The notes under the pieces: generated by a model | The model's database searches: none | Told to the model about the DNA's origin: nothing | What the model saw: only the letters and a program-made list of their open reading frames with translations | Source of the DNA: a virus | Lineage: Duplodnaviria > Caudoviricetes | Reading direction: 5' to 3' (one strand) | DNA length: 57,013 nucleotides | Virus record (IMG/VR): IMGVR_UViG_3300033148_007689 | Coordinates: 1 to 57,013 of that record | Part shown: one piece after another, positions 221 through 42,895 of the stretch | Layout: each line of letters starts with the position of its first letter | Numbering within the stretch: the first letter of the stretch is position 1 | Translations under genes and position numbers: made by a program

Positions 221-1076
221 ATGTCGACAATAAGCGATCAATAGGGTCGCCTTATCTTGAAAGAGATATTGAAAAACGGGGTGAATTGCTGGGATCTCCC
301 CCACAAGGGGACAATCAGCAGCCAAGCTTGGAAAGTAATTTCCTTGAAGGTTCAGAGACTAACGTCCGACTCCTACCGCATAGCGGGGAGAGTAATGACG
401 ACACGAGTGCCCTGCATCCTATAAATAGGATGATGATATAGTCCAAGCTTATAGGTAACTATAAGAAACAAAGTTTAAATGACTTTGTGATAATAAACTG
501 TCAAATTATACTATAGGCGGAATCGACCTATATTTCTCTGCTACTGTAGCTGATACTGATTTAGATAAAGGGACTACTACTGGTGCAGGAAGCGACTTCA
601 GAACTACTACAAAGAATTTGGGTAATATTGTTACAGCAGAACTTGCTCCTGATGTAACATTCCTAGAGCATTTTATTACTACAGCTGATGGAGATAGAAG
701 GAAAGATCATATAATTGCCTCTACAAAGAATTTAACTATACCATTCACGTTTGATGAAATGAATGAGGCTAATTTAAGACGGTTTTTCTTAGGACACAAT
801 ACCACTGCTTCTGTAGCCAACTCATTTACAGTTTTAGAAAATGCAAAACAAATTGGTAGTGCACAGGTATATTTTCATACAGATATAGGCAGGGATTTTG
901 TGTATATGATTCCTAAAGTTATGCTTCGTCCAGACGGAAATCTTGCAATGAATATTGAAGATTTTTGGAGTGGTCCTATGGCTCTTGATGTTCTATATTA
1001 TGACTGGACTCCAACTAACGAAGCAAGTCCTATATTAAGTGCTCACTATGGAGTGATGATGACAGCAGCATTCTAA
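221..1076 (+). CDS. Major tail tube protein, spliced (exons 221-238 + 501-1076, 197 aa)
   Basis: SD AAGGAAGGTG before ATG 221; splicing gives MSTISD-SNYTIGGIDLYF..NLGN, a typical tail-tube N-terminus, in frame with ORF 618-1076; lies before chaperones and TMP. Confidence 0.8.
239..500 (+). ncRNA. Group I intron (262 nt, no homing endonuclease ORF)
   Basis: P1 GCGAT/GTCGC with U.G at the 5' splice site; P AATTGCTGGGA, Q AATCAGCAGCC, R CAGAGACTA, S GATATAGTCC; terminal G at 500; removal restores the reading frame. Confidence 0.9.
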
Positions 1077-2378: not shown

Positions 2379-5300
2379 ATGGCTGTTTCAATTGGTGGAA
2401 TTCAGATCGGAGTTGGCGTAGATGTCTCTCACTTGCTAGATGGATTTAATGCTGCAAAAGCCAACATAGAAACCTTCAGAAAAGATATAGCTAAAATCAG
2501 AGTTGAAGGATTAGTAAAGGGAGATCCCTTTTCTGCTACTAGAAAACATCTCAGCAAAACGAGAGAGGCAATAAACGATGTGTTTAAATCCTGGGCTACA
2601 GCTATGAAAGATACCACCAAAGACATCAATAAGTTTGCTGCATTATCCAAAAAGTCAACAGAAAAGATAATGAAAGATTGGGCCAAATTAGGTGGTAAGA
2701 GAAAAATAGAGTTAGCATCTGAACTTACGACCTTTGCAAATCTAAAAGAAAAATTTGGGTTTGGAGAAGTAGCAGGTAGAGCACCAAAAGGTGGACGAGC
2801 TATGTGGCAATGGTTCTCTTCTGCAGATATAAGTGAACTAAACAAATATATACAAAAATGGAAGAGAGCTACTCCAGAAGTTGCAAAAGCTTTACAAGAC
2901 TTTAGTAACAGGTTTACTAGTGGTATAAAGACATCAAAAAAGAATGCAGAAGCAGAGTTTAAGAAATTATACAATACGTTAAAGGGTGCAAGACAAAGGG
3001 TAGTAAACGAATATAAAGGGTTCGGTGAAGATCTTAGAAAGGCCCAGCTAAGACAAACTAGAATTGAATGGGCAGCCAAGGGTGCAGAAGCTAGAAGCCC
3101 TGAAGCTCTTATGAAAAGAAGAAGAGAAGCACTACTTAAACTAACTGTAGCATATAGAAGATATTATCTAGAGCGTGAAAAAGGATATAATGTAGAAGCT
3201 ATGAATGAAGCTATAGGTAAAAACCTTTTAGCTAGACAACGGTGGGGAGCAAAGCTAACTAAGGAGCAGACTAAAGAACTAAAGAGATATAATAAAGAAC
3301 TAGCAAAACAAAAAGCAGGAGAATATCTATTTTCAAAACAGTGGATGCTAAATCGTGCTAGATGGTTTGTACAGTTACGTTTGTTCTGGAGTATATATAG
3401 AAATACAATAGAGGCAATAAAAGACTTAGTAGATTATCAGTATCAACTAGCTAGAGCCATGAGAACTGCACAATCAGAAACGATGACAACAACTAGGGTT
3501 ACTGAGGCATATGCCGATGCAATGAAATCAGCAGTCGTAATACACGGAGTAGGTTGGAAAGATGTTGGAGAAGCTTTATATCAATTAGGATCTGCTGGAT
3601 TAACTGCAGAAGAAAGTTTAGCTGCTTTAGATTCAACTATGTCATTAATAGTTGGTACAGAAGGCGATGTTAGAGATGTTACAAAAGCAGTAGCTGGAAT
3701 CTATAATAATTTTGCGGATACTATTACTCACGTCAATACTATACAAGAGAAATTTCAGTATATTAATAATGTTATAGCTGCAACATGGAAGTCCCACCAA
3801 GTTGAAATTGAGGAATTAACTATGGGTTACAAAAGAGCTTCTATGATGGCAGATAAAGTAGGAGTAAACTTTCTTGAATTAACTTCTATGCTTGGAGTAC
3901 TGAATGATCATATGATAAAAGGGGGGCGTGCAGGTAGGTCATTAGTTAGTGTATGGTCAAGGATGTCTAGAGGAATACATGAGTTCTCAAGAGAATTTAA
4001 TATAGCAATTGATCCAAATAAACCTCTAGATTTTATGGATATAATGACTAGATTAAGTGCTAAATTAAGCAAAGGCAAAACTTCTGTATTTGAAGTTGCT
4101 GCTGCTTTTGAAAGGCTAGGACTACGTGGTGCTCCTACATTCATAACTCTTATAAAAAATTGGGATGAAGTTAGTGAAGCTATGGCAGATATTAGTAGAG
4201 ATTCTGATGCTCTTGCAAAAAATGAAGAAACATTACTTGATACAATAAGTGGAAGATGGAAACAGTTTCTAGGAGGGTTAAGAGTATACGTAACTGAAGC
4301 AGAAGGTATTATAAGTTACCTCAAAGACGTTCTAAAAGAAGGAGCAGATTGGTTTGAGTCAAAACATATGCAGAGAGTTGAGCAGAGACTAATAGGGTTA
4401 GCTAAGACTAGACCTTTGGGTGCAGTTAATATTGCAACTGGTAAACCTAATCAGTTTTTGAGAGACGAGATAAGACTTTTATCAGTAAGAGAAAAAATAG
4501 CCTTAAAGGAAGATGCTATATTATACTCAAGAGAAGGAGGCTGGGGCTGGACTAAGAAAGAAATAGAATACTGGAAAGCAATATTAGAGATACTTGATGA
4601 TATAGAAATTGCAACTAAAAAGAAAAAAAAGGAGGAAGCAACTACTTTAAAAATAACCGAAACTTTGGCAGAAAAAAAAGTCAGAATGGCAGATACTAAT
4701 TTAGCTATTGAAGAAAGGATACTTATAGCAGAGGAATTACTTGCTAAAGCAACTCAAAAAGTTGAAGACAGAGAAGCCGACCTAAATAGAGAGAGAGCAA
4801 AAGCTATACCAATTTATGCAAATATTGTTGGTAATGCCAAATTGTTAGAAGAAGCAATGAAAGAGCGAATTGCTCTTGAAAGAACACTGGCTAGATTACG
4901 TAAAGAGTGGTCAGGCCCAGCAACAAAACAAACTATTGAAAGTCTCCAAATGCAGAAAGAAGATCTTGATTATGAGAACAAGCAACTTCAAGCAGAAAGT
5001 GATAGATATGCTTTAAAAGGAGTCACCAGTGATGAAGAAGAAAAGATGCTCGCTATAAGTAAGAGACAATATGAGATAGCAGTTAAACAATTAGAATTAG
5101 AACTAAGAATAAGTAGGATTAAAGGAGAAGGAGTATTAGAAACTGGGAAAAAAGCCCTTAGAGGGGTAGAGGAAGCAAGGGCAGCAAAGTTACTTAGGGA
5201 TGAGAAGATACATAATCAAGCTATTGCAGAATTAAAGAGACAACAAACTATTGAGACCAATAAACTACTTATAGCTAAAGATAAAGAGATTTCTTTGGCT

Positions 5301-6314
5301 AAAATAGGAAATGCTGAAGCAATTGAAATTTTAAAGTTAGAAAAAGATAGACTAGACATAAGACTAAAAGATCTTGACATTGTAGAAGAGCTTGTAAAAA
5401 AAGATGCTGATGCTGTTGATAGAATACATAATAAAAGAAGACGAATAGAAATAGAAATCACAGAAAACCTTGAAAAACAAAGACGAGCTATGCATCCCCT
5501 TTATGATGCATACAAAAAAATAGAAGCTTCAGTTAAATCAGTTAACGAATTCATCTCTGATATAACTGTCCAGACAGCACGAGGCATAGCTGGAGGTCTA
5601 ACAGATATAGTATATGATCTAACTGGTGGCTTTCAAGAACAACAGCAAGAAGCTGAAAATCTTAAAGGTAGGCTCGCAGAATTAAATAAAGAGTATAATA
5701 ATCTTTTTGAAGAAGATGAGGGAAGAGCAAAAGAGATCACAGAGGAAATGGCTAGATTAAGAAAAGAAATTGATGATCTAGAAGACCCAATCCATAATCT
5801 TAAAGAGGCATTCAAGGACTTTTTTAAAGATTTAATTGATCAAATCCGTAAAGCAATTATACAGTGGATAGCTCTAAGAGCTGTACAAGCAGGTATGAGC
5901 TGGGCTGGATTTAATATAGGTGGTAATGCAGGTGGAGTTTCCCCAGGAGATTTGGGGTATGCAAACTGGGGAGGTTGGACTCTTCCAAAGAAAACTGGAG
6001 GAATACTCCCCGAGATAAAAGCTTTCAAGCAATTCTCTAGTGGGGGTATAACTTCTAGACCAACATTGTTAGCATTAGCTGGGGATAACAAATCTGGCAG
6101 AGAACTAATAATCCCTGAAGAGAATATTAAGTCTGATGAAGTATCAGGCTATGTTAGAGAAGGTGGAGGAGATATTTATATAGGTAATTTTATAACGGAA
6201 GGGGATTTATTAGCTGCCACTGCAGGAGCTAATGGAAAAAGAGTAGTTATAAATCATGTTTTGGAGGATATTGATAATCAAGGCCCTGTGTGGCAAAGGA
6301 TAGGGGGCAGATGA
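2379..6314 (+). CDS. Tail tape measure protein (1311 aa)
   Basis: Long helical, Ala/Lys/Glu-rich; TP901-type core (LGSAGL..GGRAGRSL); FSSGG C-terminal motif; synteny. Confidence 0.9.
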   Translation: MAVSIGGIQIGVGVDVSHLLDGFNAAKANIETFRKDIAKIRVEGLVKGDPFSATRKHLSKTREAINDVFKSWATAMKDTTKDINKFAALSKKSTEKIMKDWAKLGGKRKIELASELTTFANLKEKFGFGEVAGRAPKGGRAMWQWFSSADISELNKYIQKWKRATPEVAKALQDFSNRFTSGIKTSKKNAEAEFKKLYNTLKGARQRVVNEYKGFGEDLRKAQLRQTRIEWAAKGAEARSPEALMKRRREALLKLTVAYRRYYLEREKGYNVEAMNEAIGKNLLARQRWGAKLTKEQTKELKRYNKELAKQKAGEYLFSKQWMLNRARWFVQLRLFWSIYRNTIEAIKDLVDYQYQLARAMRTAQSETMTTTRVTEAYADAMKSAVVIHGVGWKDVGEALYQLGSAGLTAEESLAALDSTMSLIVGTEGDVRDVTKAVAGIYNNFADTITHVNTIQEKFQYINNVIAATWKSHQVEIEELTMGYKRASMMADKVGVNFLELTSMLGVLNDHMIKGGRAGRSLVSVWSRMSRGIHEFSREFNIAIDPNKPLDFMDIMTRLSAKLSKGKTSVFEVAAAFERLGLRGAPTFITLIKNWDEVSEAMADISRDSDALAKNEETLLDTISGRWKQFLGGLRVYVTEAEGIISYLKDVLKEGADWFESKHMQRVEQRLIGLAKTRPLGAVNIATGKPNQFLRDEIRLLSVREKIALKEDAILYSREGGWGWTKKEIEYWKAILEILDDIEIATKKKKKEEATTLKITETLAEKKVRMADTNLAIEERILIAEELLAKATQKVEDREADLNRERAKAIPIYANIVGNAKLLEEAMKERIALERTLARLRKEWSGPATKQTIESLQMQKEDLDYENKQLQAESDRYALKGVTSDEEEKMLAISKRQYEIAVKQLELELRISRIKGEGVLETGKKALRGVEEARAAKLLRDEKIHNQAIAELKRQQTIETNKLLIAKDKEISLAKIGNAEAIEILKLEKDRLDIRLKDLDIVEELVKKDADAVDRIHNKRRRIEIEITENLEKQRRAMHPLYDAYKKIEASVKSVNEFISDITVQTARGIAGGLTDIVYDLTGGFQEQQQEAENLKGRLAELNKEYNNLFEEDEGRAKEITEEMARLRKEIDDLEDPIHNLKEAFKDFFKDLIDQIRKAIIQWIALRAVQAGMSWAGFNIGGNAGGVSPGDLGYANWGGWTLPKKTGGILPEIKAFKQFSSGGITSRPTLLALAGDNKSGRELIIPEENIKSDEVSGYVREGGGDIYIGNFITEGDLLAATAGANGKRVVINHVLEDIDNQGPVWQRIGGR

Positions 6315-6985
6315 TGCGTGTATTTCCTATGGGATTAATCAACGGGACAGATTCAACGGCAACTTTAGATACCACAGGTCTCTCATACTCATTTTTTGAA
6401 CCAAACCAAGGATGTAAAAGTGCCCCTATTTATCCAACACTTAAGACCACATATGAGAACCAAATAATATCAACTAGAAGAAAAGCTCTGCCCTACCTTA
6501 CAATTAATTACAAATATAAGGACATTTGGGATAGAGAGAAGCAAGAAATCGACCACTTTATTAACAAAGTTGGAGGGGAATTAAATTCCTTCTATGTTGC
6601 TGATATATCTTCTATGGAAACTCCCTCAGATGTTGTGGATAATGGTAGCACATGGACAATAAGTATTGGAAGAACAAGAATTTATAGCTCTGTAGCTAAT
6701 CAGCGTTCTAATTATGGGATGCTTTGGGATGGTAGTAAATTCAAAATTGGGAGTATATCCAGTGTATCTGCTGGGGTTTCAATAACAATCACTGAGACTT
6801 ATGGAGATTTAACAGCCGCTGATGCAAAAACCAGTGGAGTACTTTATCCTCTATACCGATGTTATTTTAACTCAGTTCCAGATTTTACACCAACAGTTTT
6901 TATAGACGGTAATGTAGCCACATCTACAGATGCAGGGTATATGTGGTCAGGGGAAGCAAATTTTATATCAAAATATAAGATTTAA
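6290..6985 (+). CDS. Distal/minor tail protein (start possibly 6311)
   Basis: Directly after TMP; beta-rich. Confidence 0.6.
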   Translation: MAKDRGQMMRVFPMGLINGTDSTATLDTTGLSYSFFEPNQGCKSAPIYPTLKTTYENQIISTRRKALPYLTINYKYKDIWDREKQEIDHFINKVGGELNSFYVADISSMETPSDVVDNGSTWTISIGRTRIYSSVANQRSNYGMLWDGSKFKIGSISSVSAGVSITITETYGDLTAADAKTSGVLYPLYRCYFNSVPDFTPTVFIDGNVATSTDAGYMWSGEANFISKYKI

Positions 6986-33896: not shown

Positions 33897-34551
33897 TTAG
33901 TATGTTCCATCAGCAATTTTTTTAAGTGAATCTCTAATGTCTTGTCCGTCAACATCGTGACCAACATTTACCCATCCATTTTCAAATTTCTGAGATGAGC
34001 GAGCAAAGAGTTCTATTCTCGGCAAATCACCACACAATTTGACTATTTTGTCCCTAACAATAGTAGGTTTCTTTGAATGCTCTGTTCTAGGATGAATTAA
34101 CACACTTGAAATTGTATTATCTATTACAATAGGTTTCCCTTTCACTCCAATTAAACACACTTCACAATTGGATTTAGTATAATAACCTATCCCAAAAAAT
34201 GGTCGACCATTGATTTTATTTGTTTTAATCCAACTGAATCCAAGTGTTTTATATTGAAATCCCCACGCTTTTATTACATCTAATGCTTCCTGTAAATTTG
34301 GAAATGTAGCCCATAAAAATAGCATACAATTTCTATCAGCAATTGTGCCAACAGGGATACTCTTTATATCTTCTATATCCATAACATCATAATGAACCAC
34401 CGCTCCCCCACAGAATCGTGTATGTTTATTTCTTCTGTCGTTATATCTCCACGGTGAGTTATGGGTCTGCGTAAATGATTTGATATTTCTTATTACGCAG
34501 ACCTTTGGCATCACCCCCTTCAGAACCTGAGGTAATCCTTAATTGTTCCAT
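33897..34551 (-). pseudogene. MT-A70-family methyltransferase broken by a 7-nt insertion in DPPW
   Basis: ATG 34551 ..KKYQIIYADP-[TAACTCA]-PWRY..LFLWAT..HSKKP..IELFAR. Confidence 0.75.
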
Positions 34552-36335
34552 TACCCAGCTCCTACAATAGTTGAAATCCCATCACTTTTCTCAACATTAA
34601 TGATATTACTAAACCTGTCTTGAATTTGTGAATGAGACATAACAAAAATAGAACCCACATCCTGAGACTTCAATCGTAGAAGATCTACCACTGAATCACA
34701 GCCTGCTCCATCTAACGACCCCTCAAGCACTTCATCTAAAAATAGAAAGTTGAAATCACTCATCAACTCATGGAATGCAAACATATCAGCAACCCTGACT
34801 CGTTGTTTTTCACCGCCAGAGAAGCTGTGGTAATCACGTGATCTACCACTTGAATCAATCACTTTATAAGATATTTTTTCTCTACTCTCTTTAGATTTCA
34901 GTTGAGATTGTGCTGATAATTTTACTGATGTATTACTTACCTGTGATAAATAACTGTTAATTAAATCCTCTAAATCTCCGAGCATACCCTCTATTTTAAG
35001 ATTGGGTATGCCTTGCTTACCAAAACCTTTTATCCAAAATTCATAATATTTATATTCATCAGATAATTTAGCATTCTCATTTTTCTTATCTTTAATCCAA
35101 CCTGCAGTTTGATCAATCTTATCGTTTATTCCTTGTCTAATTTCTTCATATGGATTCTGTTCTGCACTAATCTCTTTTATTCTCTCATCTATAGAAATTA
35201 TCTCTTTTTCAATATTTACGTTCTCATATCTTATTCTCTCTATTTCTTTTTCATGCTCTTGTATCTGTCTTACTATTTTGTTATCTTCTTCTATTTCCTT
35301 TTCATACTTTTCAATCTTTGTCTCTATGTCTTTTAGTTTAAGTGTAAGTTTTGTATTCTTCTTATTAAGTTTATTTAATTTTGGAGTATATATTTCTTTA
35401 ACTTTATTAGATTCTTCGGTCAGTCGTGAGCACTCATCTTTAAATATAGGACATATATTGTTTTCAGATTCATTTAATTGTTGTGTTATAAGTTTTATTT
35501 CTTGTTGTATTTCTATTCTGTTTTTAGTTAGTTCTTTTCTATTTTGTTCTATAGTATTATATTCTTCTATATTCGGTATAATTCTATTTGAATGCAAATC
35601 AGCTATTTCTGATTCTAAATCTGAAGTATCTTTTGGTTTCAAATTATCTTTTTTCAGTAACAGTTCTGCTATTTTCGTCCTTTTTTCTACATCAAAATTA
35701 CTAATTTTGTTATCATAACTTTTCAGTTCTTCTTTTAATTCCTCTATACTTTTCTCATAATAATTTATTTTTATGTTATTATCATTTATATTATGCTCTA
35801 TTTCATTACATTTTTCTTTTGCTCTGTCTTGAAATACGTCATATTTACCTAGATCTAAAAACTTGTATAATATATCTTTTCTCTGGGAGTCCTTAGCTTC
35901 AGCAAAAGAGGAGGAGTACTGAGAAAAAATGGTAGACATAAACAAATTACTAGTATCTAATAACTTGTCTATCTCTTTTTGGGTATCCCTCCTGTCAGTA
36001 TGAGTAAAACTATCACTCCCATTTAATTTTAGTATAGTATCATTTTTGTGCTTTTTGCTATTTCTATATTTTGTTATTTCAATAATATCATTATCTTTCT
36101 CTAACTTACAATACATTTTACACTCAGTGTTTCCCTCTCTAGGAAACTCTTCCAGAGGAATAGAATCTGAAATAGTGTCTGTCAGAAGATATTCAACAGC
36201 TTGTCTAATAGAAGACTTCCCACTTCCATTTGATCCCTGAATCAAAGTGAGACCTCTGCTATCTAAGTTGGTTAAATTTAATTCTTTCCAACTCCTAAAA
36301 TTTTGGAGTTCTAGTGTTTTTAACCTAATAGTCAT
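34551..36335 (-). CDS. Rad50/SbcC (T4 gp46-like) ATPase
   Basis: GSNGSGKS Walker A, CPxxxxxC hook, FSGGE signature, FLDE. Confidence 0.9.
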   Translation of the reverse strand: MTIRLKTLELQNFRSWKELNLTNLDSRGLTLIQGSNGSGKSSIRQAVEYLLTDTISDSIPLEEFPREGNTECKMYCKLEKDNDIIEITKYRNSKKHKNDTILKLNGSDSFTHTDRRDTQKEIDKLLDTSNLFMSTIFSQYSSSFAEAKDSQRKDILYKFLDLGKYDVFQDRAKEKCNEIEHNINDNNIKINYYEKSIEELKEELKSYDNKISNFDVEKRTKIAELLLKKDNLKPKDTSDLESEIADLHSNRIIPNIEEYNTIEQNRKELTKNRIEIQQEIKLITQQLNESENNICPIFKDECSRLTEESNKVKEIYTPKLNKLNKKNTKLTLKLKDIETKIEKYEKEIEEDNKIVRQIQEHEKEIERIRYENVNIEKEIISIDERIKEISAEQNPYEEIRQGINDKIDQTAGWIKDKKNENAKLSDEYKYYEFWIKGFGKQGIPNLKIEGMLGDLEDLINSYLSQVSNTSVKLSAQSQLKSKESREKISYKVIDSSGRSRDYHSFSGGEKQRVRVADMFAFHELMSDFNFLFLDEVLEGSLDGAGCDSVVDLLRLKSQDVGSIFVMSHSQIQDRFSNIINVEKSDGISTIVGAG

Positions 36336-37674: not shown

Positions 37675-37975
37675 GTGAATGCTCCCCCGGCTATAAGCTG
37701 TGGGCTTCTAAGGGTAAGGACTGACGTCCTTTTCCTAAGCTCTGCATTCCCAGAACTAAAATATTTTTGGCAGCATTAACATCACGATTTAAATGGAGAT
37801 TACAAATAGGGCAATGGTATACCCTTTCAGACAATTCAAGTTTATGCCTATTTCCACATTGAGAACATATCTGGCTGGTATAGGCAGGGTTGACCTTAAC
37901 CGTCCGACCCCCGGCCCATGCTGCCTTGAAGTCGAGAAGGTTAAGAAATTGTCTCCATGCTGCATCTCCAATTAA
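37675..37975 (-). pseudogene. tnpB: IS605-family tnpB 3' remnant with right end
   Basis: DAAWRQFLNLLDFKAA / frameshift / KVNPAYTSQICSQCG..CPIC..NRDVNAAKNIL; end hairpin CCCACAGCTTATAGCCGGGG followed by TCAC. Confidence 0.85.
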
Positions 37976-38385
37976 TCGGCATCAATTTCGTGGTCGGCTT
38001 CAGTGCCCTTGTTAGGGAACGGCTCTAATTCATCTAATAACTGCCACGCTTTTTGTTGATCTCTTTGGGATCTATCGAATGTATAACGTATTACTCTTTT
38101 AAAGATTTTGATTTTCATTTTAATACCCTAACAGTAACATATATCAATAAAGATAAAACGCCTAATACTATTGAATACAAGCCAAGAAATGCTTTCATAT
38201 ACGTTTAGCTTCCTCCTCTGCAAAATGACGACGTTTCTCTTCAGCATCTCTCAAGGAAAGGAAAGCTGATAGACATGCCTGACTCCATGTAATCCGCTTT
38301 CGCTTTGGGGTTTCAATTTCTGAAATACAAAGAGGTCTCTTGCTATTCTGCTTAATTATTTTTTTAATTAGCCATTCCTTAAAGT

Positions 38386-40272
38386 TCATATCAATAACCT
38401 TATTATTGTATCCTTTTCTAATTTCTGTGGTGAAAGGTCTATGTCACAGTTCTCAACATCCTCTACCATTGTTGCACCAGCTTTTTCTAAAATATCATTC
38501 AAACTAATTGTGTTAGTGTAAAAATCAAACAGATATTTTCTACTACGGTCAACAAACTCAGAGCCGGTTGATGTTATTGACTTACCTAAATAAGTTTCTG
38601 CAAAGTAAAATTTAGACTCGTTCTCTGTTGTTGCTATTAATCCTAGTACCTTTTGTTTTTGGTTGATAGTTGAATTAGCAATAGCTTTTACGTTATTTGG
38701 GTCAACCATATAATTCTTCTTAAACCTATTCGCTTGCTCTTTTGCTACTAATATTTTGAAGGGCACTTCTATACTAGCATCAAAGTTATAATAATTGACA
38801 AACATTATTAATGATGCCTCATTCTGTCGTTTAACATAAAATAATTCTGTAGCCCTATTTTTACCACTAGCATCTGTCATGTCTCCAGAGAATAGTATAG
38901 TTCCTGCCCCATCCCTATAATTACCATCCCAACCAAACTTAGTACCTGCATTTATTATGGATAGATCAAGGTCTATCCTCTTATGGTTTATATTGTTCCA
39001 ATGGATGCCAAAAATCATATCATTGGGAACAGATACATAAGAACCAGATGGGAAGTTGCCAGTGAACATCTTTTCGGTTGCTGGAAGAGTATAATGTATA
39101 TAGTCAGGGATATAAATTCTCTTACCAGTTACCTTCTCACTAATATCTTCAATGATAGACTCAAGAACAATATTCAATGCTTCTTTGGCCTTTTCTCGCT
39201 CAAAAAAAGAAAAATCTGTAGCATAGCTTTTTCCATTGCGAATACGGAAAAGAATTGAATCATGCTCTTTTGTTCTGAATTTCAATGCATAAGCCAATCT
39301 TATTTTCCTGAAAATATTTACCCGATCTAACTCCTGTCTTAATATGTCTATATCTATTTCATTACCGTGTTTTATCAGAGAAGTTATGTCATTAAGATAA
39401 TCTGGTTTCATCGGTTTATGATATTTAACAGACAGCTTCCTCAATTTATTTATAATCTTGTTCAACTGTGGGTTTGTCTTGAAGGCAAGAAATAATGGTT
39501 TGAACCGCAGGAAAATTTCAGCCAGTTTTTTCAATCCATATTCTCTATCATAATCCTTAAAAAGCTTAATGATTTTGAGATTTTTGTTACCTTTTATTTC
39601 CTTTATCAGTTCAGCAGACTTTATCAGTAAGGTCTGTTCTGTTGATTGATATACAATATATCTAAGAAATTCAATAGGGTTCTGAGGAACTATATTTAGG
39701 TAGCTATATAAAGCAATCCTAACCTCTTTGTTCTCGATATTCTCTATTTCCTCTACATCTAGCTCCAACCAAAGAGCTATATCAACTACATCATTTATTG
39801 TGTTTTGTTTTAAAGCAATACCTGAAGCTAAGAGGCTTATCAATTTCTCTTTAATCTCACTCTTGGTGTAACCCTTGATAACAACAAGACTAATATTGTC
39901 AATATCGGGTATATCTAATTCCTCTCTAGGAATATAAACAGAGTCTGGGCTATAAACTCCAAAAAGCTCAAAACCATACGTAGTGATATAATGAATCACC
40001 TGCTCTAAAAATAACTGCTCAATATCTGCCTCTTTTATCTTCTTCCAAGATTTGTGGAAAGAGTTATTCATCTGTTCAGGAGTAAGACCAATTTCCTGTT
40101 CAATTATCTCAGTTAACTCAACCAATTCTTTTGTGGAATAATTAGCAACCACATCAGGAGAGAAGATGAAACCTTTCTGTATTGTTTTCTTAAGTAAAGT
40201 TTCACTTACCTTTTCTTTTCTTTTATCTCTTATTGGTAGAGCTTTAAACAGTCGTAGTGTTGAGTAAGTCAT
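38386..40272 (-). CDS. 628-aa protein, helical N-terminus plus TerD-like C-terminus, function unknown
   Basis: IHW..IDLDLS..FSGDMTDA..ATELFY resembles TerD motifs (by eye). Confidence 0.6.
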   Translation of the reverse strand: MTYSTLRLFKALPIRDKRKEKVSETLLKKTIQKGFIFSPDVVANYSTKELVELTEIIEQEIGLTPEQMNNSFHKSWKKIKEADIEQLFLEQVIHYITTYGFELFGVYSPDSVYIPREELDIPDIDNISLVVIKGYTKSEIKEKLISLLASGIALKQNTINDVVDIALWLELDVEEIENIENKEVRIALYSYLNIVPQNPIEFLRYIVYQSTEQTLLIKSAELIKEIKGNKNLKIIKLFKDYDREYGLKKLAEIFLRFKPLFLAFKTNPQLNKIINKLRKLSVKYHKPMKPDYLNDITSLIKHGNEIDIDILRQELDRVNIFRKIRLAYALKFRTKEHDSILFRIRNGKSYATDFSFFEREKAKEALNIVLESIIEDISEKVTGKRIYIPDYIHYTLPATEKMFTGNFPSGSYVSVPNDMIFGIHWNNINHKRIDLDLSIINAGTKFGWDGNYRDGAGTILFSGDMTDASGKNRATELFYVKRQNEASLIMFVNYYNFDASIEVPFKILVAKEQANRFKKNYMVDPNNVKAIANSTINQKQKVLGLIATTENESKFYFAETYLGKSITSTGSEFVDRSRKYLFDFYTNTISLNDILEKAGATMVEDVENCDIDLSPQKLEKDTIIRLLI

Positions 40273-40304
40273 CTTCCTCCCCCTTTCTTAGTTTATTGCT
40301 TAAT

Positions 40305-40481
40305 TTATTCAACGTCCGATAGAGCGTTCCAGAATTTAACTCTCATATCTCTTTCCTCTTCTGGCTCTTCATCTGGATTACCACGAAGAGGATTCTGTAC
40401 TACGCTCTTCAACCACCTCGCCTCTTTTTCAGTAAGCTCAAGAATAATCTTTTGTACTATTTCAGTTTGCCTTCTCATCAT
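40305..40481 (-). CDS. 58-aa hypothetical protein (not in ORF track)
   Basis: SD AAAGGAGG, MMRRQTEIV..SDVE*. Confidence 0.65.
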   Translation of the reverse strand: MMRRQTEIVQKIILELTEKEARWLKSVVQNPLRGNPDEEPEEERDMRVKFWNALSDVE

Positions 40482-40502
40482 CTTATCCTCCTTTCAATTG
40501 GT

Positions 40503-40682
40503 AGGGCGAGGGGTAATAATCCCCAATGATTTTTTATAGGAACCCCATTTGCCTTAAATTAAGGAGCGAGCAATAGTTAATTTAGCAGTTAACTTGTTAG
40601 GAATTGCCTATGCTCCTTTTATTCAAAAGGCGGGCAGTAGTTGTATCCAAATTATACTTTATAGGAACTGCTCTCTGCCTTT
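40503..40682 (-). ncRNA. Tandem array of three ~55-nt hairpin RNAs with variable loops
   Basis: Each unit: outer stem, bulge, 5-bp covarying stem, TCCTA, 19-20 variable nt, AYT. Confidence 0.75.
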
Positions 40683-40690
40683 AAAACTAG

Positions 40691-40718
40691 AACATAATCA
40701 TTAATTCTCATTTGTCAA
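40691..40718 (-). promoter_or_regulatory. Phage early sigma70-type promoter
   Basis: TTGACA-AATGAGAATTAATGAT-TATGTT; same spacer family as 51230, 51853, 52322. Confidence 0.8.
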
Positions 40719-40732
40719 GTGGTAAAATCAAT

Positions 40733-41716
40733 TTATTTTGCCAACTCCTCCCCCACTTTAAGAAGTCTACTATAATCCAATTTCGGTTTTGAGATCTTTA
40801 TATATTCTTTTAATTCATCCCCCTTCCTTAAATTTTTCTTCAGTCGGACTTCTCGTTCCTTCACTTTTATTTCACCTACACTTACATTAAACTTTTTAAA
40901 AACAGGATCACTTAATAGCCTTGAGTCTACATCAATTCTATAAAAGTTCCGGCTATCCCCCATAATAGTCTTCTTAATCTTATCGTTCAGCCCACTGAAC
41001 GTAAAGAATCTTGGGCAAGCTGTAGGGACAGAAATAACCTCACCATCCTTATAATGAATGAATCTTTTTACATCATCTATCTCCCCAAAATCCTGAGCCA
41101 TCGGAGAACCAATATTCACTATATTCCCAAGGGTTTGAGGTTTATGGATATGACTATTAAACACGATATCCCAACTTCCAAATATCTGGCTCTTTAACTT
41201 TGCCCCACTTGTATAATCAGACGGACCAAGCTTAAGTCCAGCAATATCTTCATGTGTAAATAATATAGTTTTATTAAATCCTTTTGGGATAGATAGATTT
41301 CCTTCTACCATCCCATAGGGGATAATACGTATTAGAGTACTATCATATTTGAGATCCTCTGGTTCACAAACTACTCTCACATTGTCAGAAAAAGGCAACA
41401 ATGAAGATTTTCTTCTATCTAAGCTATAAAAATCATGATTGCCAGTATTCATTATAATATCAAAACTTTTGGAGTATTCTCTGTATAAACTCCAAACTAT
41501 ATTTAAAGTATCAAAGTCAATTCTGTTTTTTATCTCAAAGAGATCACCATTAAATATCACAAGATTTATATTATTATCCTTAGCATAACTAAAGATTTGA
41601 TGGGTCACTTGTATTTGCTCCCAGAGCCAGCTATTCATACCATCTGGTCTCGTATAGGACTTAGATGGATTAGTATAGTATTGAATATCCCCATATGTAA
41701 CAAAATTAAGGCTCAT
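40733..41716 (-). CDS. Mre11/SbcD (gp47-like) nuclease
   Basis: GDIQ, GDLF, GNHD, SHIH, GSP..DFGE. Confidence 0.85.
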   Translation of the reverse strand: MSLNFVTYGDIQYYTNPSKSYTRPDGMNSWLWEQIQVTHQIFSYAKDNNINLVIFNGDLFEIKNRIDFDTLNIVWSLYREYSKSFDIIMNTGNHDFYSLDRRKSSLLPFSDNVRVVCEPEDLKYDSTLIRIIPYGMVEGNLSIPKGFNKTILFTHEDIAGLKLGPSDYTSGAKLKSQIFGSWDIVFNSHIHKPQTLGNIVNIGSPMAQDFGEIDDVKRFIHYKDGEVISVPTACPRFFTFSGLNDKIKKTIMGDSRNFYRIDVDSRLLSDPVFKKFNVSVGEIKVKEREVRLKKNLRKGDELKEYIKISKPKLDYSRLLKVGEELAK

Positions 41717-41719
41717 TTT

Positions 41720-42895
41720 TTATCTCCCGTTTAACCTAATTAATCTCTTAGAAGCTATCCTACAATATTCTATTTCTTTCTCTATTAAGAGACATTTTCG
41801 TTTCTGTTTCTTGCAAGCTAATCCTGTCGTACCACTACCACTAAACGGATCCAAGACTATCCCACCCGTAGGAGTCTTGGTCAGCTTAACAAGATATTCC
41901 ATAAGAGATAAAGGTTTGACTGCAGGATGTTTATTATATTTCCCACGTTCAGATTTTGAGGCCTTAGCGCAGTAGTAAAAGCGAGAGGCTCCTGTTCGAC
42001 TATCTCTATAGGCAGGATTAGTACCTTGAGATACTAAACCAAACATCCCCTTAATTTCCCTATTAGTTACATTATCTCCTGTTTTACACTTCCCACTCTG
42101 CTCATCCAGCATCTCTGCTGCTTCTTCATCAAGGATAAGGTTTGCAGGAAAACGACCTTGAGGCGGAGTTATTTTATTATCACCATATATCTTAGCCTCT
42201 GTATATTGATTAGACTTATAAACCCTTTTAGCTGAACCAGAAGGTTGGGCTTCACCGTTAAGGGGTATCCTCCCTCCATTAATATTTAATCCTCCTACGC
42301 CCCACTTTAAGGCATTATTGGCAAAAGTACCATCAAGAGGCTTCATAGCTACTACGATAGGTTCCCATGCTGGTTTCATGGCAGTACCATAGCCATTCCA
42401 GGCTTGGGCTTCAGGAGTAGTTACATTTTTTATAGTAAAGTTTTTACCAACCTTCCCAGATTTATATAAATCCTCTTTAACATTAGGTCTCGACACCGGA
42501 CTAACAATTTTAGTATCCTCTAACTCTATACCTTGTAGTTTTTGTATACTTTTTGCTATATCTAACGACTTAGGAAATCCACTCCCATAAAGCCACATCA
42601 GACAATCCCTTATTTCCCATCCTGCATCCTCTATAGCACAGGTCAAACGATGAAAGGTACGAGTTCCACCAAAGGCAAGGAGAAAAGCTCCTGGTTTAGC
42701 TACTTGTAAACACTCAACCCATGTTTCTTTACTTGGCAATGTCTTATCCCAGTCTTTACCCATGAACTTTAATGCATAGGGAGGGTCTGTTATTATACTG
42801 TCAATGGAATTAGGCTCCATTTGTCGCATAATATTTAGGTTATTACCGTTATATAATGTACAGTAATCATCTTGGTAAAAAACGTCTAACTCCAT
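41720..42895 (-). CDS. DNA amino-methyltransferase (beta class, DPPY)
   Basis: ITDPPY, HPAVKP, LDPFSGSGTT. Confidence 0.9.
   Translation of the reverse strand: MELDVFYQDDYCTLYNGNNLNIMRQMEPNSIDSIITDPPYALKFMGKDWDKTLPSKETWVECLQVAKPGAFLLAFGGTRTFHRLTCAIEDAGWEIRDCLMWLYGSGFPKSLDIAKSIQKLQGIELEDTKIVSPVSRPNVKEDLYKSGKVGKNFTIKNVTTPEAQAWNGYGTAMKPAWEPIVVAMKPLDGTFANNALKWGVGGLNINGGRIPLNGEAQPSGSAKRVYKSNQYTEAKIYGDNKITPPQGRFPANLILDEEAAEMLDEQSGKCKTGDNVTNREIKGMFGLVSQGTNPAYRDSRTGASRFYYCAKASKSERGKYNKHPAVKPLSLMEYLVKLTKTPTGGIVLDPFSGSGTTGLACKKQKRKCLLIEKEIEYCRIASKRLIRLNGR

What the first reader, a model, noticed from the sequence alone, without database searches (positions are those of the whole stretch)
38195..40718. 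Promoter-driven array of three covarying hairpin RNAs with ~20-nt variable loops heading a TerD-like-protein operon: candidate new RNA-guided or RNP system
Seen (minus strand, starting ~8 nt after the -10 box): U1 AAAGGCAG-AGA-GCAGT-TCCTA-taaagtataatttggataca-ACT-ACTGC-CCGCCTTT; U2 AAGGAGCA-TAG-GCAAT-TCCTA-acaagttaactgctaaatta-ACT-ATTGC-TCGCTCCTT; U3 AAGGCAA-AT-GGGGT-TCCTA-taaaaaatcattggggatt-ATT-ACCCC-TCGCCCT. The stems change sequence but keep pairing (GCAGT/ACTGC, GCAAT/ATTGC, GGGGT/ACCCC). TCCTA and AYT are invariant, and the loop is constant in length (19-20 nt) but variable in sequence. A 58-aa ORF and a 628-aa helical + TerD-like protein follow. Inference: processed small RNAs (bulged stem loosely like Y-RNA/Ro60) load on the 628-aa protein, with the loops acting as guides or decoys. 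It fits neither CRISPR, TIGR nor omega-RNA architecture.
Basis: partly seen in the sequence, partly recalled or inferred. Interest (0 to 1): 0.92.

Follow-up and report, generated by a model that had tools for sequence, protein, structure and literature searches.

The report
Phage Y-RNA-like hairpins with partner protein
The three hairpins are real members of a large, undescribed family of small structured RNAs that always sit beside one unnamed phage protein, probably forming a tRNA-mimicking RNA-protein particle comparable to Ro60 with its Y RNAs.

Summary
Three bulged hairpins lie on the minus strand at 40503-40682, behind a TTGACA-16-TATGTT site and ahead of a 58-aa ORF and a 628-aa ORF.

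A covariance model built from 10 units found 215 matches in the window plus 78 of 81 viral loci that encode homologues of the 628-aa protein. Every match is on the gene's strand. The three loci without a match hold no upstream DNA. In a separate genome collection 24 of 25 loci also matched.

Stems covary strongly. The core GC-AUA-R-[5 bp]-UCCUA...U-[5 bp]-Y-C-GC is nearly invariant, while the apical part varies.

In other genomes the same core carries a circularly permuted tRNA-like domain (sub-threshold Rfam YrlA hits), or sits in the anticodon arm of an otherwise normal tRNA.

The protein family is large (1452 clusters at 50% identity) and unnamed. It has a helical N-domain with no fold match and a TerD-fold C-domain. 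It is not a TROVE/Ro60 protein.

Loci often lie in phage tRNA arrays. In Chryseobacterium the order is RtcB, RNAs, protein, RlaP.

Best reading: a non-TROVE analogue of the Ro60/Y-RNA particle, acting on tRNA damage or in tRNA-centred conflict. The guide-RNA idea is not supported. No expression or binding data exist.

The parts
40691..40718 (-). Sigma-70-like promoter candidate, TTGACA-16 nt-TATGTT, about 8 nt upstream of unit 1
   Evidence: 10 of 12 consensus positions. The region as a whole has no excess of such sites over shuffles, so position is the only argument. A similar TTTACA-17-TATATT precedes the array in L004 (my reading of the sequence).
40626..40682 (-). RNA unit 1: P1 (AAAGGC/GCCTTT), 5' bulge, P2 (GCAGT/ACTGC), UCCUA junction, apical inner hairpin GTAT-AATTTGG-ATAC
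   Evidence: Sequence. Model R1 58.4 bits, E 3.7e-11. Fold -12.9 kcal/mol, z -1.73.
40561..40618 (-). RNA unit 2: P1 (AAGGAGC/GCTCCTT), AUA bulge, P2 (G-GCAAT/ATTGC-T), UCCUA junction, apical hairpin GTTAA-CTGCTAAA-TTAAC
   Evidence: R1 52.9 bits, E 8.9e-10. Fold -16.6 kcal/mol, z -3.90, 0 of 200 shuffles as stable.
40503..40555 (-). RNA unit 3: P1 (GGC/GCC), AAA bulge, P2 (GGGGT/ACCCC), UCCUA junction, apical AATC-ATTGGG-GATT hairpin of the recurrent AUUGG class
   Evidence: R1 61.0 bits, E 8e-12. Loop class.
40305..40481 (-). 58-aa ORF between the array and the large gene. It is a real phage gene family of unknown function but not a conserved part of the module.
   Evidence: phrog_7471, E 1.3e-14. 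No such ORF lies between units and gene in L001, L002, L003 or L004.
38386..40272 (-). 628-aa partner protein: N-terminal alpha-helical domain (about residues 1-380) with no fold match, and a C-terminal TerD-fold beta-sandwich (about residues 385-570)
   Evidence: No Pfam, PHROG or PADLOC family. At least 2219 homologues and 1452 clusters at 50% identity. AlphaFold models. Foldseek results.
38195..38389 (-). 64-aa ORF whose ATG overlaps the stop of the 628-aa gene. Function unknown, and not seen as a conserved neighbour.
   Evidence: No Pfam, PHROG or PADLOC hit. The neighbour clustering found no recurrent partner, but it used only ORFs of 70 aa or more.

Best explanation
The three hairpins are small non-coding RNAs of an undescribed family. 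I infer that each is transcribed with its neighbours and cut out of the transcript.

Each RNA has a constant core and a free apical part. The core is a terminal helix P1 whose last two pairs are GC/GC, then an asymmetric internal loop (5' AUA, 3' C), then a 6-bp helix P2, then a junction that opens with invariant UCCUA followed by an A-rich stretch and closes with U before the P2 3' strand. The apical part may be a small hairpin (sometimes shaped like an anticodon stem-loop), a long capped hairpin, a T-arm, or a whole circularly permuted tRNA-like body. In a third arrangement the core itself is circularly permuted and sits in the anticodon arm of an otherwise normal tRNA.

I infer that the constant core is the binding site of the adjacent protein of about 630 aa (helical domain plus TerD-fold domain). 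The pair would then form a particle that works like Ro60 with its Y RNAs YrlA and YrlB: the protein is the scaffold, and the variable tRNA-like parts tether or distract enzymes that act on tRNA.

The genomic company is phage tRNA arrays, and the RtcB RNA ligase and RlaP nucleotidyltransferase in Chryseobacterium. This points to tRNA damage, tRNA repair, or conflict with tRNA-cleaving host defences.

Shown here: the RNA structure, its strand specificity, its strict linkage to the gene, the tRNA chimeras, the protein's fold and the absence of TROVE. Inferred: transcription, processing, binding and biological role.
For: Linkage:
- R1 gave 215 matches at E <= 1 in 79 of 82 sources (the window plus 78 of 81 viral loci, 666 kb, both strands searched). 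All are on the strand of the protein gene, mostly within about 600 nt upstream.
- The 3 loci without a match (L005, L073, L075) begin inside the gene, so no upstream DNA is held.
- Several loci are the same or near-identical phages, so I count about 68 independent loci.
- An independent regex scan found 191 hits on the gene's strand against 8 on the other strand.
- In a second collection 24 of 25 loci have units, all on the gene's strand, and the single miss has no upstream DNA.
- Distant homologues (25-29% identity) in the cultured phages S-CRM01, S-CBWM1 and Phass-1 also have units.
- In five whole bacterial genomes all 9 matches at E <= 1e-3 lie at the module.

Structure:
- 95.1% of cells pair, against 75.4% in shuffles.
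- 10 of 12 pairs show changes on both sides (375 cells); 0 of 500 shuffles reach the score, and the slid controls collapse.
- Outside the fraying terminal pair there are 36 G-U pairs against 3 A-C, so the fold belongs to the sense strand.

tRNA connection:
- Long units fold as T-arm, closed acceptor and D-arm and hit Rfam YrlA at 49.5, 39.0 and 34.9 bits.
- 13 aligned chimeric tRNAs carry the permuted core: 96.4% of cells pair, and 19 of 29 pairs, including 4 of 6 in the permuted P2, change on both sides.

Context:
- tRNA genes lie in 20 of 81 viral loci, 115 of 116 of them on the gene's strand.
- C. defluvii has the order RtcB, 3 units, protein, RlaP.
- RtcB lies beside the module in L105, L106, L012, L024 and L089.

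Protein:
- The family is highly conserved and very large.
- The C-domain has the TerD fold.
- No protein neighbour recurs in more than 6 of 72 loci, so the RNA is the only constant partner.
Against: No RNA data exist. No RNA run holds the stretch, so transcription, processing and stability are untested. Binding is inferred from co-location only; no tool here models protein with RNA.

The protein is not related to Ro60 by any test made here. The Rsr-binding motif GNCGAAN0-1G is absent from the array. The comparison is therefore one of function, not of membership.

The window's own three units carry no tRNA-like domain. The window's record has neither RtcB nor any tRNA gene, although it is estimated to be only 51% complete.

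RtcB is next to the module in only 6 of about 106 loci and occurs in 1 of 5 other phage records searched whole. The repair link may therefore be special to some lineages.

The Chryseobacterium genomes also keep a canonical TROVE protein elsewhere. The new protein does not replace Ro60 there, and its role could be different.

Alignment A3 was fitted to the model, which biases the pair counts towards the structure.
Confidence: 0.6

Rival explanations
1. Cis-acting leader. The hairpins would be operator sites in the 5' untranslated region through which the protein controls its own synthesis, as ribosomal-protein leaders do. They would not be free RNAs.
For: Most units lie directly upstream of the gene on the same strand, often ending within 10-30 nt of its start codon. 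In the window they follow a promoter-like site and precede the ORFs without a predicted terminator.
Against: Units also lie just downstream of the gene in L010, L023, L039, L043, L068/L074, L082 and L101. They lie 1.3 kb downstream in Phass-1, 2.5 kb upstream among tRNAs in S-CBWM1, and about 1.3 kb upstream in L030. In the window an unrelated 58-aa gene separates array and gene. Arrays of 2-6 units with different apical parts, tRNA-like domains and cores embedded in complete tRNAs are not what an operator needs.
Confidence: 0.1
2. Pure decoy or sponge. The RNAs would be sacrificial mimics of anticodon arms and tRNA bodies that soak up host tRNA-cleaving nucleases or tRNA-modifying enzymes. 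The protein would only stabilise or present them, with no repair or quality-control activity.
For: 15 of 114 short units hold an inner hairpin with a 7-nt loop of the form Y-U-NNN-R-N, against 3.8 +/- 1.9 in shuffled loops (maximum 9 in 200 shuffles). The loops CUGUUAA (7 units), CUUGAAA (6) and CUGUAAA (1) recur on different stems. From general knowledge, not from a call, these read like the anticodon loops of tRNA-Asn, tRNA-Ser(UGA) and tRNA-Tyr. The module lies in phage tRNA arrays.
Against: Only about an eighth of units look like anticodon arms. The commonest class, AUU(U)GG, has a 6-nt loop. Bacterial chromosomal copies next to RtcB and RlaP fit repair better than anti-defence. Nothing has been tested.
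Confidence: 0.15
3. RNA-guided system. The variable loops would base-pair with nucleic-acid targets and direct the protein to them.
For: The RNAs have constant handles and variable middles, are arranged in arrays, and are strictly linked to one large protein.
Against: The loops of the three window units have no match in the 57-kb record beyond what shuffled loops give: longest exact matches are 11, 10 and 11 nt, and 55, 89 and 43 of 100 shuffles do as well. Loop length ranges from about 15 to 95 nt. Many loops are internally paired, and the same loop motifs recur in unrelated phages, which is unlike spacers. The protein has no recognisable nuclease or other effector domain. Only the phage's own record was searched; host and rival genomes were not.
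Confidence: 0.04
4. Mobile or intron-like RNA element. The core would be an insertion that colonises tRNA anticodon loops and intergenic DNA, and the protein would be its maturase, excision or ligation factor.
For: In 14 loci the core sits exactly in the anticodon loop of a complete tRNA. RtcB, which is a tRNA-splicing ligase in archaea and eukaryotes, is sometimes adjacent.
Against: In the five chimeras I inspected by eye, the sequence left after removing the core does not give a consistent 7-nt anticodon loop (my reading). Most units are free-standing hairpins with their own terminal helix. Units are found only at the protein gene, not scattered through genomes.
Confidence: 0.05
5. DNA-level repeats, such as protein-binding palindromes, recombination sites or an origin, or else plain transcription terminators.
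For: Each unit is an inverted repeat in AT-rich intergenic DNA.
Against: All 215 viral-set matches and all 40 genome-set matches lie on one strand relative to the gene. G-U pairs outnumber A-C 36 to 3. The conserved single-stranded motifs are asymmetric. No terminator-like site is predicted on the units' strand in the region scanned (37800-41000), which covers the array.
Confidence: 0.02

Closest known systems
Ro60 (Rsr) with bacterial Y RNAs YrlA and YrlB
   Same: Several small RNAs are encoded beside one scaffold protein of about 500-630 aa built from a helical part plus a metal-binding-type domain. Each RNA has a long terminal stem with a conserved bulged protein site. At least some RNAs carry a tRNA-like body with T-arm, closed acceptor stem and D-arm, while others are plain hairpins (PMC4201824, passages read). 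The module can sit beside RtcB, as in the Salmonella rsr-yrlBA-rtcBA operon (abstracts of PMC7790460 and PMC9879122 seen).
   Different: The protein has no TROVE or vWA domain. Pfam finds none in 35 of 35 members. hhalign against three TROVE proteins gives 0.9% probability. Foldseek on the N-domain gives a best E of 0.13 with no Ro60 among the 50 listed matches. The RNA's conserved site is GC-AUA...UCCUA, not GNCGAAN0-1G. YrlA hits stay below Rfam's threshold. A further topology exists, with the core inside a real tRNA. Chryseobacterium carries both systems.
SPFH/Band-7 scaffold with a 'novel tRNA-like molecule' in RNA-repair operons (Burroughs and Aravind 2016, NAR 44:8525)
   Same: As I recall its abstract, that survey proposes scaffold proteins with cognate non-coding RNAs in RtcB-centred repair systems. 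That is the same logic as proposed here.
   Different: This is recalled only. The paper is not held, so I could not check whether a TerD-fold protein or this RNA is mentioned there. The protein here is not a Band-7 protein by Pfam.
Type III toxin-antitoxin loci (ToxIN type)
   Same: A promoter is followed by a tandem array of small structured RNA units and then a protein gene.
   Different: As I recall, ToxI-type repeats are near-identical direct repeats of about 34-36 nt cut by a toxin of about 170 aa. Here the units differ in sequence and covary, the protein is 628 aa with an unrelated architecture, and no PADLOC model matches.
TerD family (tellurite-resistance proteins; PDB 2kxt, 3ibz, 2qz7)
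   Same: The C-terminal 190 or so residues have the TerD beta-sandwich fold (Foldseek probability 1.00, TM 0.52-0.57 normalised to the target). The conserved DLDLS and SGDxTDA stretches resemble, as I recall, the TerD calcium-binding motifs.
   Different: Pfam TerD is not detected in any of 35 members. The domain is fused to a 380-residue helical domain of unknown fold. There are no other ter genes nearby, and the constant partner is an RNA.
MXAN_6230/SCO0854 family RING-domain proteins (NCBIfam NF041916)
   Same: These are whole-length structural look-alikes in the ESM Atlas (TM 0.76 by query over 604 aligned residues). There is weak sequence similarity in the TerD-like part (E 0.016 for the window protein, down to 4.8e-8 for relatives).
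   Different: Scores are far below the family cut-off (13-32 bits against 600). Those proteins are 840-990 aa with a RING domain that is absent here. Their function is unknown, with nothing relevant among the 3 papers found. Whether they have RNA partners was not tested.

Membership tests
Ro60/Rsr - Y RNA particle | Protein carries a TROVE domain (HEAT-repeat ring) | tested here: not met
   No Pfam TROVE hit at E <= 1 in 35 of 35 members. hhalign of A1 against three Chryseobacterium TROVE proteins gives 0.9% probability. Foldseek on the high-confidence N-domain model gives a best E of 0.13, with no Ro60 among the 50 matches listed.
Ro60/Rsr - Y RNA particle | C-terminal von Willebrand A domain | tested here: not met
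   The C-domain matches TerD beta-sandwiches instead.
Ro60/Rsr - Y RNA particle | RNA with the Rsr-binding motif GNCGAAN0-1G near its 5' end (PMC4201824) | tested here: not met
   None of the 6 window matches to GNCGAANG lies in the array, and the count is at chance level. The family consensus is GGCAUAG...UCCUA. The N0 variant GNCGAAG was not searched separately.
Ro60/Rsr - Y RNA particle | At least one RNA per locus has a tRNA-like domain | tested here: inconclusive
   A tRNA-like domain is present in about a quarter of loci, in two topologies. It is absent from the window's three units.
Rfam YrlA (RF02553) | Score at or above the gathering threshold of 69 bits | tested here: not met
   The best scores are 49.5, 39.0 and 34.9 bits, in L056 (two places) and L029. 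There is no YrlA match at all in the window.
tRNA (Rfam RF00005) | Cloverleaf scoring above 29 bits | tested here: not met
   The window has no tRNA by ARAGORN and no Rfam tRNA match. The feature is met only by the chimeric relative in L001 (57 bits at 3796-3906), which ARAGORN does not call.
CRISPR array | Near-identical direct repeats separated by unique spacers, with cas genes | tested here: not met
   The units differ in sequence and covary. The only CRISPR-DR hit is a chance-level 21.7 bits against a threshold of 45, on the opposite strand. No PADLOC model matches.
TerD family (Pfam PF02342) | Sequence match to the TerD profile | tested here: not met
   0 of 35 members match. Only the fold is shared.
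MXAN_6230/SCO0854 RING family (NF041916) | Score at or above 600 bits, with a RING domain | tested here: not met
   Scores are 13.3-31.7 bits, confined to the TerD-like part. No RING domain is found by Pfam.

The most novel reading that the evidence does not exclude
This would be a new class of RNA-protein particle. A scaffold protein unrelated to Ro60 recognises a small RNA 'handle' (GC-AUA bulge, P2 and the UCCUA junction). Evolution has grafted that handle in three topologies onto anticodon-arm mimics, onto permuted tRNA bodies and into complete tRNAs that may still be processed. On this reading, phages and some bacteria use such handle-tagged tRNA parts to capture, neutralise or repair the products of tRNA-targeting enzymes, which would make it a previously unseen arm of the tRNA-centred conflict between phage and host. 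The tagged full tRNAs might even carry the protein to tRNA-handling machines.
Probability: 0.35. Interest if true: 0.92.

Novelty: new variant of a known kind. Interest (0 to 1): 0.85.

Why it matters
If the pairing is real, one of the largest unnamed protein families of tailed phages gains its first functional clue. The family has at least 1452 clusters at 50% identity. It occurs in phage contigs from many environments, in contigs binned with bacterial and archaeal genomes, and in cultured Bacteroidota.

A new family of structured RNAs would also join the short list of natural tRNA mimics. The family shows natural circular permutation of an RNA module around a tRNA, which is rare and useful for RNA structural biology.

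It would show as well that the logic of Ro60 with Y RNAs, a scaffold protein plus modular tRNA-like RNAs beside repair enzymes, arose more than once.

The system can be tested now. Synechococcus phage S-CRM01, phage S-CBWM1 and several Chryseobacterium and Mesonia strains are in culture and carry the module. Existing annotations lay 'hypothetical protein' ORFs over the RNAs in S-CRM01 and Phass-1, and these can be corrected.

Tried and rejected
- **Rfam:** the whole window at gathering thresholds gave only a group I intron elsewhere. The array at E <= 10 gave only chance-level hits: CRISPR-DR51 at 21.7 bits on the other strand, U12 and bxd_5.
- **tRNA scan:** ARAGORN found no tRNA in the window.
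- **Phage DNA search:** blastn of the region against 50,697 phage records found no match.
- **PDB by sequence:** only chance hits, E about 0.8.
- **Protein family libraries:** no Pfam, PHROG or PADLOC match; NCBIfam gave only far-sub-threshold hits to NF041916.
- **Fused forms:** a search among proteins of 1100-3140 aa found none, which the tool itself calls weak evidence. I did not search shorter forms.
- **Conserved protein neighbours:** the best cluster occurs in 6 of 72 viral loci. I dropped 12 duplicate or overlapping loci before that count, and only ORFs of 70 aa or more that start with ATG were used.
- **Sequencing runs:** no RNA holder is listed. Four DNA runs hold small shares of the words. 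I laid no reads.
- **Guide test:** loops against the phage's own record gave nothing above shuffles.
- **P3 idea:** I considered that the UGG in the AUU(U)GG loops pairs with the invariant UCC, or alternatively with tRNA 3' CCA ends. A UGG occurs in only 36 of 124 classified units. I left both ideas untested.
- **Kink-turn:** I considered a kink-turn at the AUA bulge and rejected it by eye, since there are no tandem G-A pairs.
- **Burroughs and Aravind 2016:** the paper could not be read.
- **Supplements:** the supplementary tables of Chen et al. 2014, which list the YrlA loci found in 22 phages, are closed. I cannot exclude that a few tRNA-bearing members were caught there.
- **Literature:** searches found no description of this RNA or protein.


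Full report
**What is in the window**

Read on the minus strand, the stop codon of an SbcD-like phosphoesterase gene (40733-41716; Pfam Metallophos, phrog_100) is followed by TTGACA-16 nt-TATGTT (40718-40691). About 8 nt later come three hairpin units: U1 40626-40682, U2 40561-40618 and U3 40503-40555. Next comes a strong ribosome-binding site and a 58-aa ORF (40305-40481, phrog_7471, unknown function). After that lie a 628-aa ORF (38386-40272) and a 64-aa ORF whose start overlaps its stop (38195-38389).

The window is a phage record of 57 kb, estimated 51% complete. It carries an SbcC-like gene at 34551-36335 and a DNA methylase at 41720-42895. It has no tRNA gene.

**Is it more than chance?**

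The single sequence alone does not say so. The units fold with z-scores of -1.73, -3.90 and -0.49, and the whole array gives -1.25. A loose pattern for the unit is not enriched in the window, and promoter-like sites are no more frequent than in shuffles. Rfam has nothing for the region. The case rests on comparison with other genomes.

Homologues of the 628-aa protein are very numerous. At least 2219 proteins reach E <= 0.001 among the 7998 candidates scored. An exhaustive profile-free search found 1452 cluster representatives at 50% identity, 929 of them at E <= 1e-30.

I fetched 5 and then 80 viral loci around such genes. Reading four of them by eye showed the same kind of hairpin directly upstream of the gene, with no 58-aa ORF in between.

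I then built a covariance model, R1, from 10 units: 3 from the window and 7 from three other phages.

- R1 found 215 matches at E <= 1 in 666 kb searched on both strands.
- The matches lie in the window and in 78 of the 81 loci.
- Every match is on the strand of the protein gene.
- Nearly all lie within about 600 nt upstream of it. A few lie immediately downstream (L010, L023, L039, L043, L068/L074, L082) or further upstream (L030, L035, L072).
- The three loci without a match (L005, L073, L075) start inside the gene and hold no upstream DNA.

Several loci are the same or near-identical phages (for example L018/L019, L046/L047, L016/L058, L061/L062, L060/L066, L068/L074, L048/L049). I count about 68 independent loci.

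A crude regex scan that owes nothing to Infernal gave 191 hits on the gene's strand and 8 on the other.

A second, independent collection of prokaryote genomes gave 25 loci. R1 matched in 24 of them, always on the gene's strand. The one miss, L088, again has no upstream DNA.

Distant homologues (25-29% identity) in three cultured or named phages also have units: Synechococcus phage S-CRM01 (g174), S-CBWM1 (gp22) and Phass-1.

Searching five whole bacterial genomes (25.6 Mb) with R1 gave 9 matches at E <= 1e-3, and all 9 lie at the module. Only the 150 best first-look candidates per genome were scored there.

**The RNA**

On the 150 best matches (132 distinct rows) 95.1% of cells form standard pairs, against 75.4% after shuffling. 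10 of 12 pairs change on both sides (375 cells). No shuffle of 500 reaches the covariation score, and sliding the partner by 1-3 columns drops pairing to 36-57%. That alignment was fitted to the model, so the counts are biased towards the structure, but the margin is large.

Outside the fraying terminal pair there are 36 G-U pairs against 3 A-C. The structure therefore belongs to the sense strand, that is, to an RNA.

The consensus reads as follows:

- a variable outer P1;
- the invariant pairs G-C and C-G;
- a 5' internal loop A-U/A/C-A, with both A's (nearly) invariant;
- a 6-bp P2 ending in G-U;
- invariant UCCU, then A, then an A/U-rich stretch;
- the apical part;
- an invariant U before A-C, which begin the P2 3' strand;
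- an unpaired C before the closing G-C.

The apical part is free in length, with units running from 43 to 120 nt. It is not random. Of 114 short units, 108 have an inner hairpin of at least 3 bp. The recurrent classes are a C-AUU(U)GGN-G type (19 units), CUGUUAA (7), CUUGAAA (6) and CUGUAAA (1). A loop of the form Y-U-NNN-R-N on a stem occurs in 15 of 114 units, against 3.8 +/- 1.9 in shuffled loops. From general knowledge, not from a call, the last three motifs read like the anticodon loops of tRNA-Asn, tRNA-Ser(UGA) and tRNA-Tyr.

The window's U1 and U3 belong to the AUU(U)GG class. U2 has an 8-nt CUGCUAAA loop on a 5-bp stem.

**The tRNA connection**

Units of 114-120 nt fold with the apical part forming a T-arm, a closed acceptor-like stem and a D-arm (L018, L029, L056, L076). 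That is the circularly permuted tRNA body known from the bacterial Y RNA YrlA. Rfam's YrlA model hits three such units at 49.5, 39.0 and 34.9 bits (threshold 69; E from 4e-8 to 7e-4).

A scan for T-arms near the UCCUA motif found this type in L018/L019, L029, L056, L057, L076, L079, L081 and L093. Reduced versions occur in L035, L036, L051 and S-CRM01.

The same scan found a second type in 14 loci: L006/L007, L010, L011, L021, L030, L039, L044, L072, L098, L099, L104, L105 and L106. This is an ordinary tRNA with acceptor stem, D-arm, anticodon stem, variable loop and T-arm. Its anticodon loop is replaced by the core written in permuted order: the P2 3' strand, C, GC, a 5-nt cap, GC, the AUA-type bulge, the P2 5' strand, then UCCUA. 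Rfam calls the L001 example a tRNA at 57 bits, whereas ARAGORN does not call it.

On a plain MAFFT alignment of 13 of these (L007 dropped as identical to L006), 96.4% of cells pair. 19 of 29 pairs change on both sides, including 4 of 6 in the permuted P2 and all 5 in the anticodon stem. The two GC pairs never vary.

The same three-dimensional arrangement, a tRNA body joined through its anticodon stem to the core, is therefore written in two circular permutations. That is hard to explain unless the folded RNA is the functional object.

**The protein**

AlphaFold2 gave a whole-length model with mean pLDDT 80.4. A model of residues 1-400 from a 126-sequence alignment reached pLDDT 90.8 and pTM 0.84.

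The C-terminal beta domain matches TerD structures: 2kxt, 3ibz, 2qng and 2qz7, with probability 1.00 and TM 0.52-0.57 normalised to the target.

The N-terminal helical domain has no match in the PDB. The best E is 0.13 at TM <= 0.22, and the listed hits are generic helical repeats, with no Ro60 among the 50 shown.

Whole-length look-alikes exist among predicted viral structures, from a Siphoviridae contig, Campylobacter virus IBB35 and Lactobacillus phage LpeD. In the ESM Atlas the look-alikes include the bacterial MXAN_6230/SCO0854 RING-domain family (TM 0.76), which also gives weak NCBIfam hits in the TerD-like part.

The protein is not a Ro60:

- Pfam TROVE is absent from 35 of 35 members.
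- A profile-profile comparison with three TROVE proteins gives 0.9% probability.
- No TROVE gene occurs in the window's record or in five other phage records, four of them at least 90% complete.
- The three Chryseobacterium genomes have a canonical 505-aa TROVE protein elsewhere. The two systems therefore coexist.

**Company it keeps**

In viral loci no protein neighbour recurs in more than 6 of 72 loci. The RNA is the only constant partner.

tRNA genes lie within 3 kb in 20 of 81 viral loci, 115 of 116 of them on the gene's strand. The script printed '82' loci. I believe it counted ARAGORN's closing line as a record. In S-CRM01 and S-CBWM1 the gene sits in the middle of the phage tRNA array.

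In Chryseobacterium defluvii the order is RtcB (Pfam E 7e-35), three units, the protein, then RlaP (Pfam E 5e-70). RtcB also adjoins the module in C. pennae, C. vrystaatense, viral L012 (E 2e-110), L024 (partial) and a MAG (L089, opposite strand). RlaP lies 2.8 kb downstream in C. pennae. RlaP adds nucleotides to damaged tRNA ends before ligation (preprint 10.64898/2025.12.29.696909, passages read).

Elsewhere, in Mesonia, Zunongwangia and a Bacteroidota MAG, the module stands alone among housekeeping genes. RtcB is absent from the window's record and present in 1 of 5 other phage records searched whole.

**Reading**

The constant, sequence-conserved internal loop and junction look like a protein-recognition site. 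The only constant neighbour is this protein. The variable part displays pieces of tRNA.

The closest known logic is Ro60 with YrlA and YrlB: several RNAs beside the scaffold gene, one of them tRNA-like and others plain hairpins, next to RtcB in Salmonella (PMC4201824, passages; abstracts).

I therefore read the locus as a non-TROVE analogue of the Ro60/Y-RNA particle, engaged in tRNA damage, tRNA repair or tRNA-directed conflict. I put 0.85 on 'the RNA and the protein work together' and about 0.5 on the Y-RNA-like role, which gives 0.6 for the statement as written.

The rivals are listed separately with their weights: a cis-acting leader, a pure decoy, a guide RNA, an intron-like element, and DNA-level repeats. 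The guide reading fares worst.

**Novelty**

Ten literature searches and Rfam 15 gave no description of this RNA or protein. I could not read Burroughs and Aravind 2016. As I recall, that paper proposes scaffold proteins with cognate RNAs in repair operons. I also could not see the supplements of Chen et al. 2014. Either might mention a few members.

I class the finding as a new variant of a known kind, a Y-RNA-like particle built on a different protein and a different RNA handle. The bolder reading, a new class, is kept as the novel case.

**Limits**

There is no expression, processing or binding evidence. Host identity is unknown for the window. Contigs labelled as archaeal or bacterial MAGs may be binned phage DNA. 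Classification of the tRNA-bearing units rests on my reading of printed sequences. The negative fold searches do not prove that the N-domain is a new fold.

Noticed in passing
window 228-465 (+): Group I catalytic intron: Rfam RF00028 at 90.6 bits (threshold 50), E 6e-22, full model length. I did not look for the interrupted host gene.
   Followed up: no
window 34551-36335 (-) and 40733-41716 (-): The SbcC-like and SbcD-like genes, usually adjacent, are about 4.4 kb apart here. The RNA-protein module and a string of small ORFs lie between them, which suggests the module sits in an insertion-prone spot.
   Followed up: partly
L085 (Synechococcus phage S-CRM01, NC_015569.1) 3794-3940 and L087 (Phage Phass-1, OQ749652.1) 6022-6321: Annotated 'hypothetical protein' ORFs (g173c on the opposite strand in S-CRM01, WIC39680.1 in Phass-1) lie over R1 matches: S-CRM01 3818-3881 and Phass-1 6016-6480 with five units. 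These CDS calls are probably wrong.
   Followed up: partly
L012 820-2070, 2784-2975, 2995-4884, 5329-6081: A viral contig with a full-length RtcB, then three RNA units, the partner protein, and then QueC (7-deazaguanine/queuosine pathway) and a weak DUF5591 hit. This is a possible link between the module and tRNA or DNA deazaguanine modification.
   Followed up: no
L114-L118 (Chryseobacterium genomes G006-G008): The same three genomes that carry the module also encode a canonical 505-aa TROVE/Ro60 protein at another place. R1 finds no unit near it.
   Followed up: partly
L024 4907-7893: Directly downstream of the partner gene lies a DNA polymerase III alpha gene. It carries an Intein_splicing hit below Pfam's threshold (30.9 bits against a cut-off of 35.8).
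   Followed up: no
L107 5034-5729: In a Bacteroidota MAG an HTH-WYL regulator gene follows the module. WYL domains are ligand-sensing regulators often tied to defence or repair loci, as I recall.
   Followed up: no
L078, L089-L097 record titles: Close homologues (48-60% identity) lie on contigs binned as Promethearchaeota, Pacearchaeota, Woesearchaeota, Nanoarchaeota and Borrarchaeum. One is inside a 3.7-Mb scaffold (L097). If these are not binning artefacts, the module also occurs in archaeal viruses or archaeal genomes.
   Followed up: no
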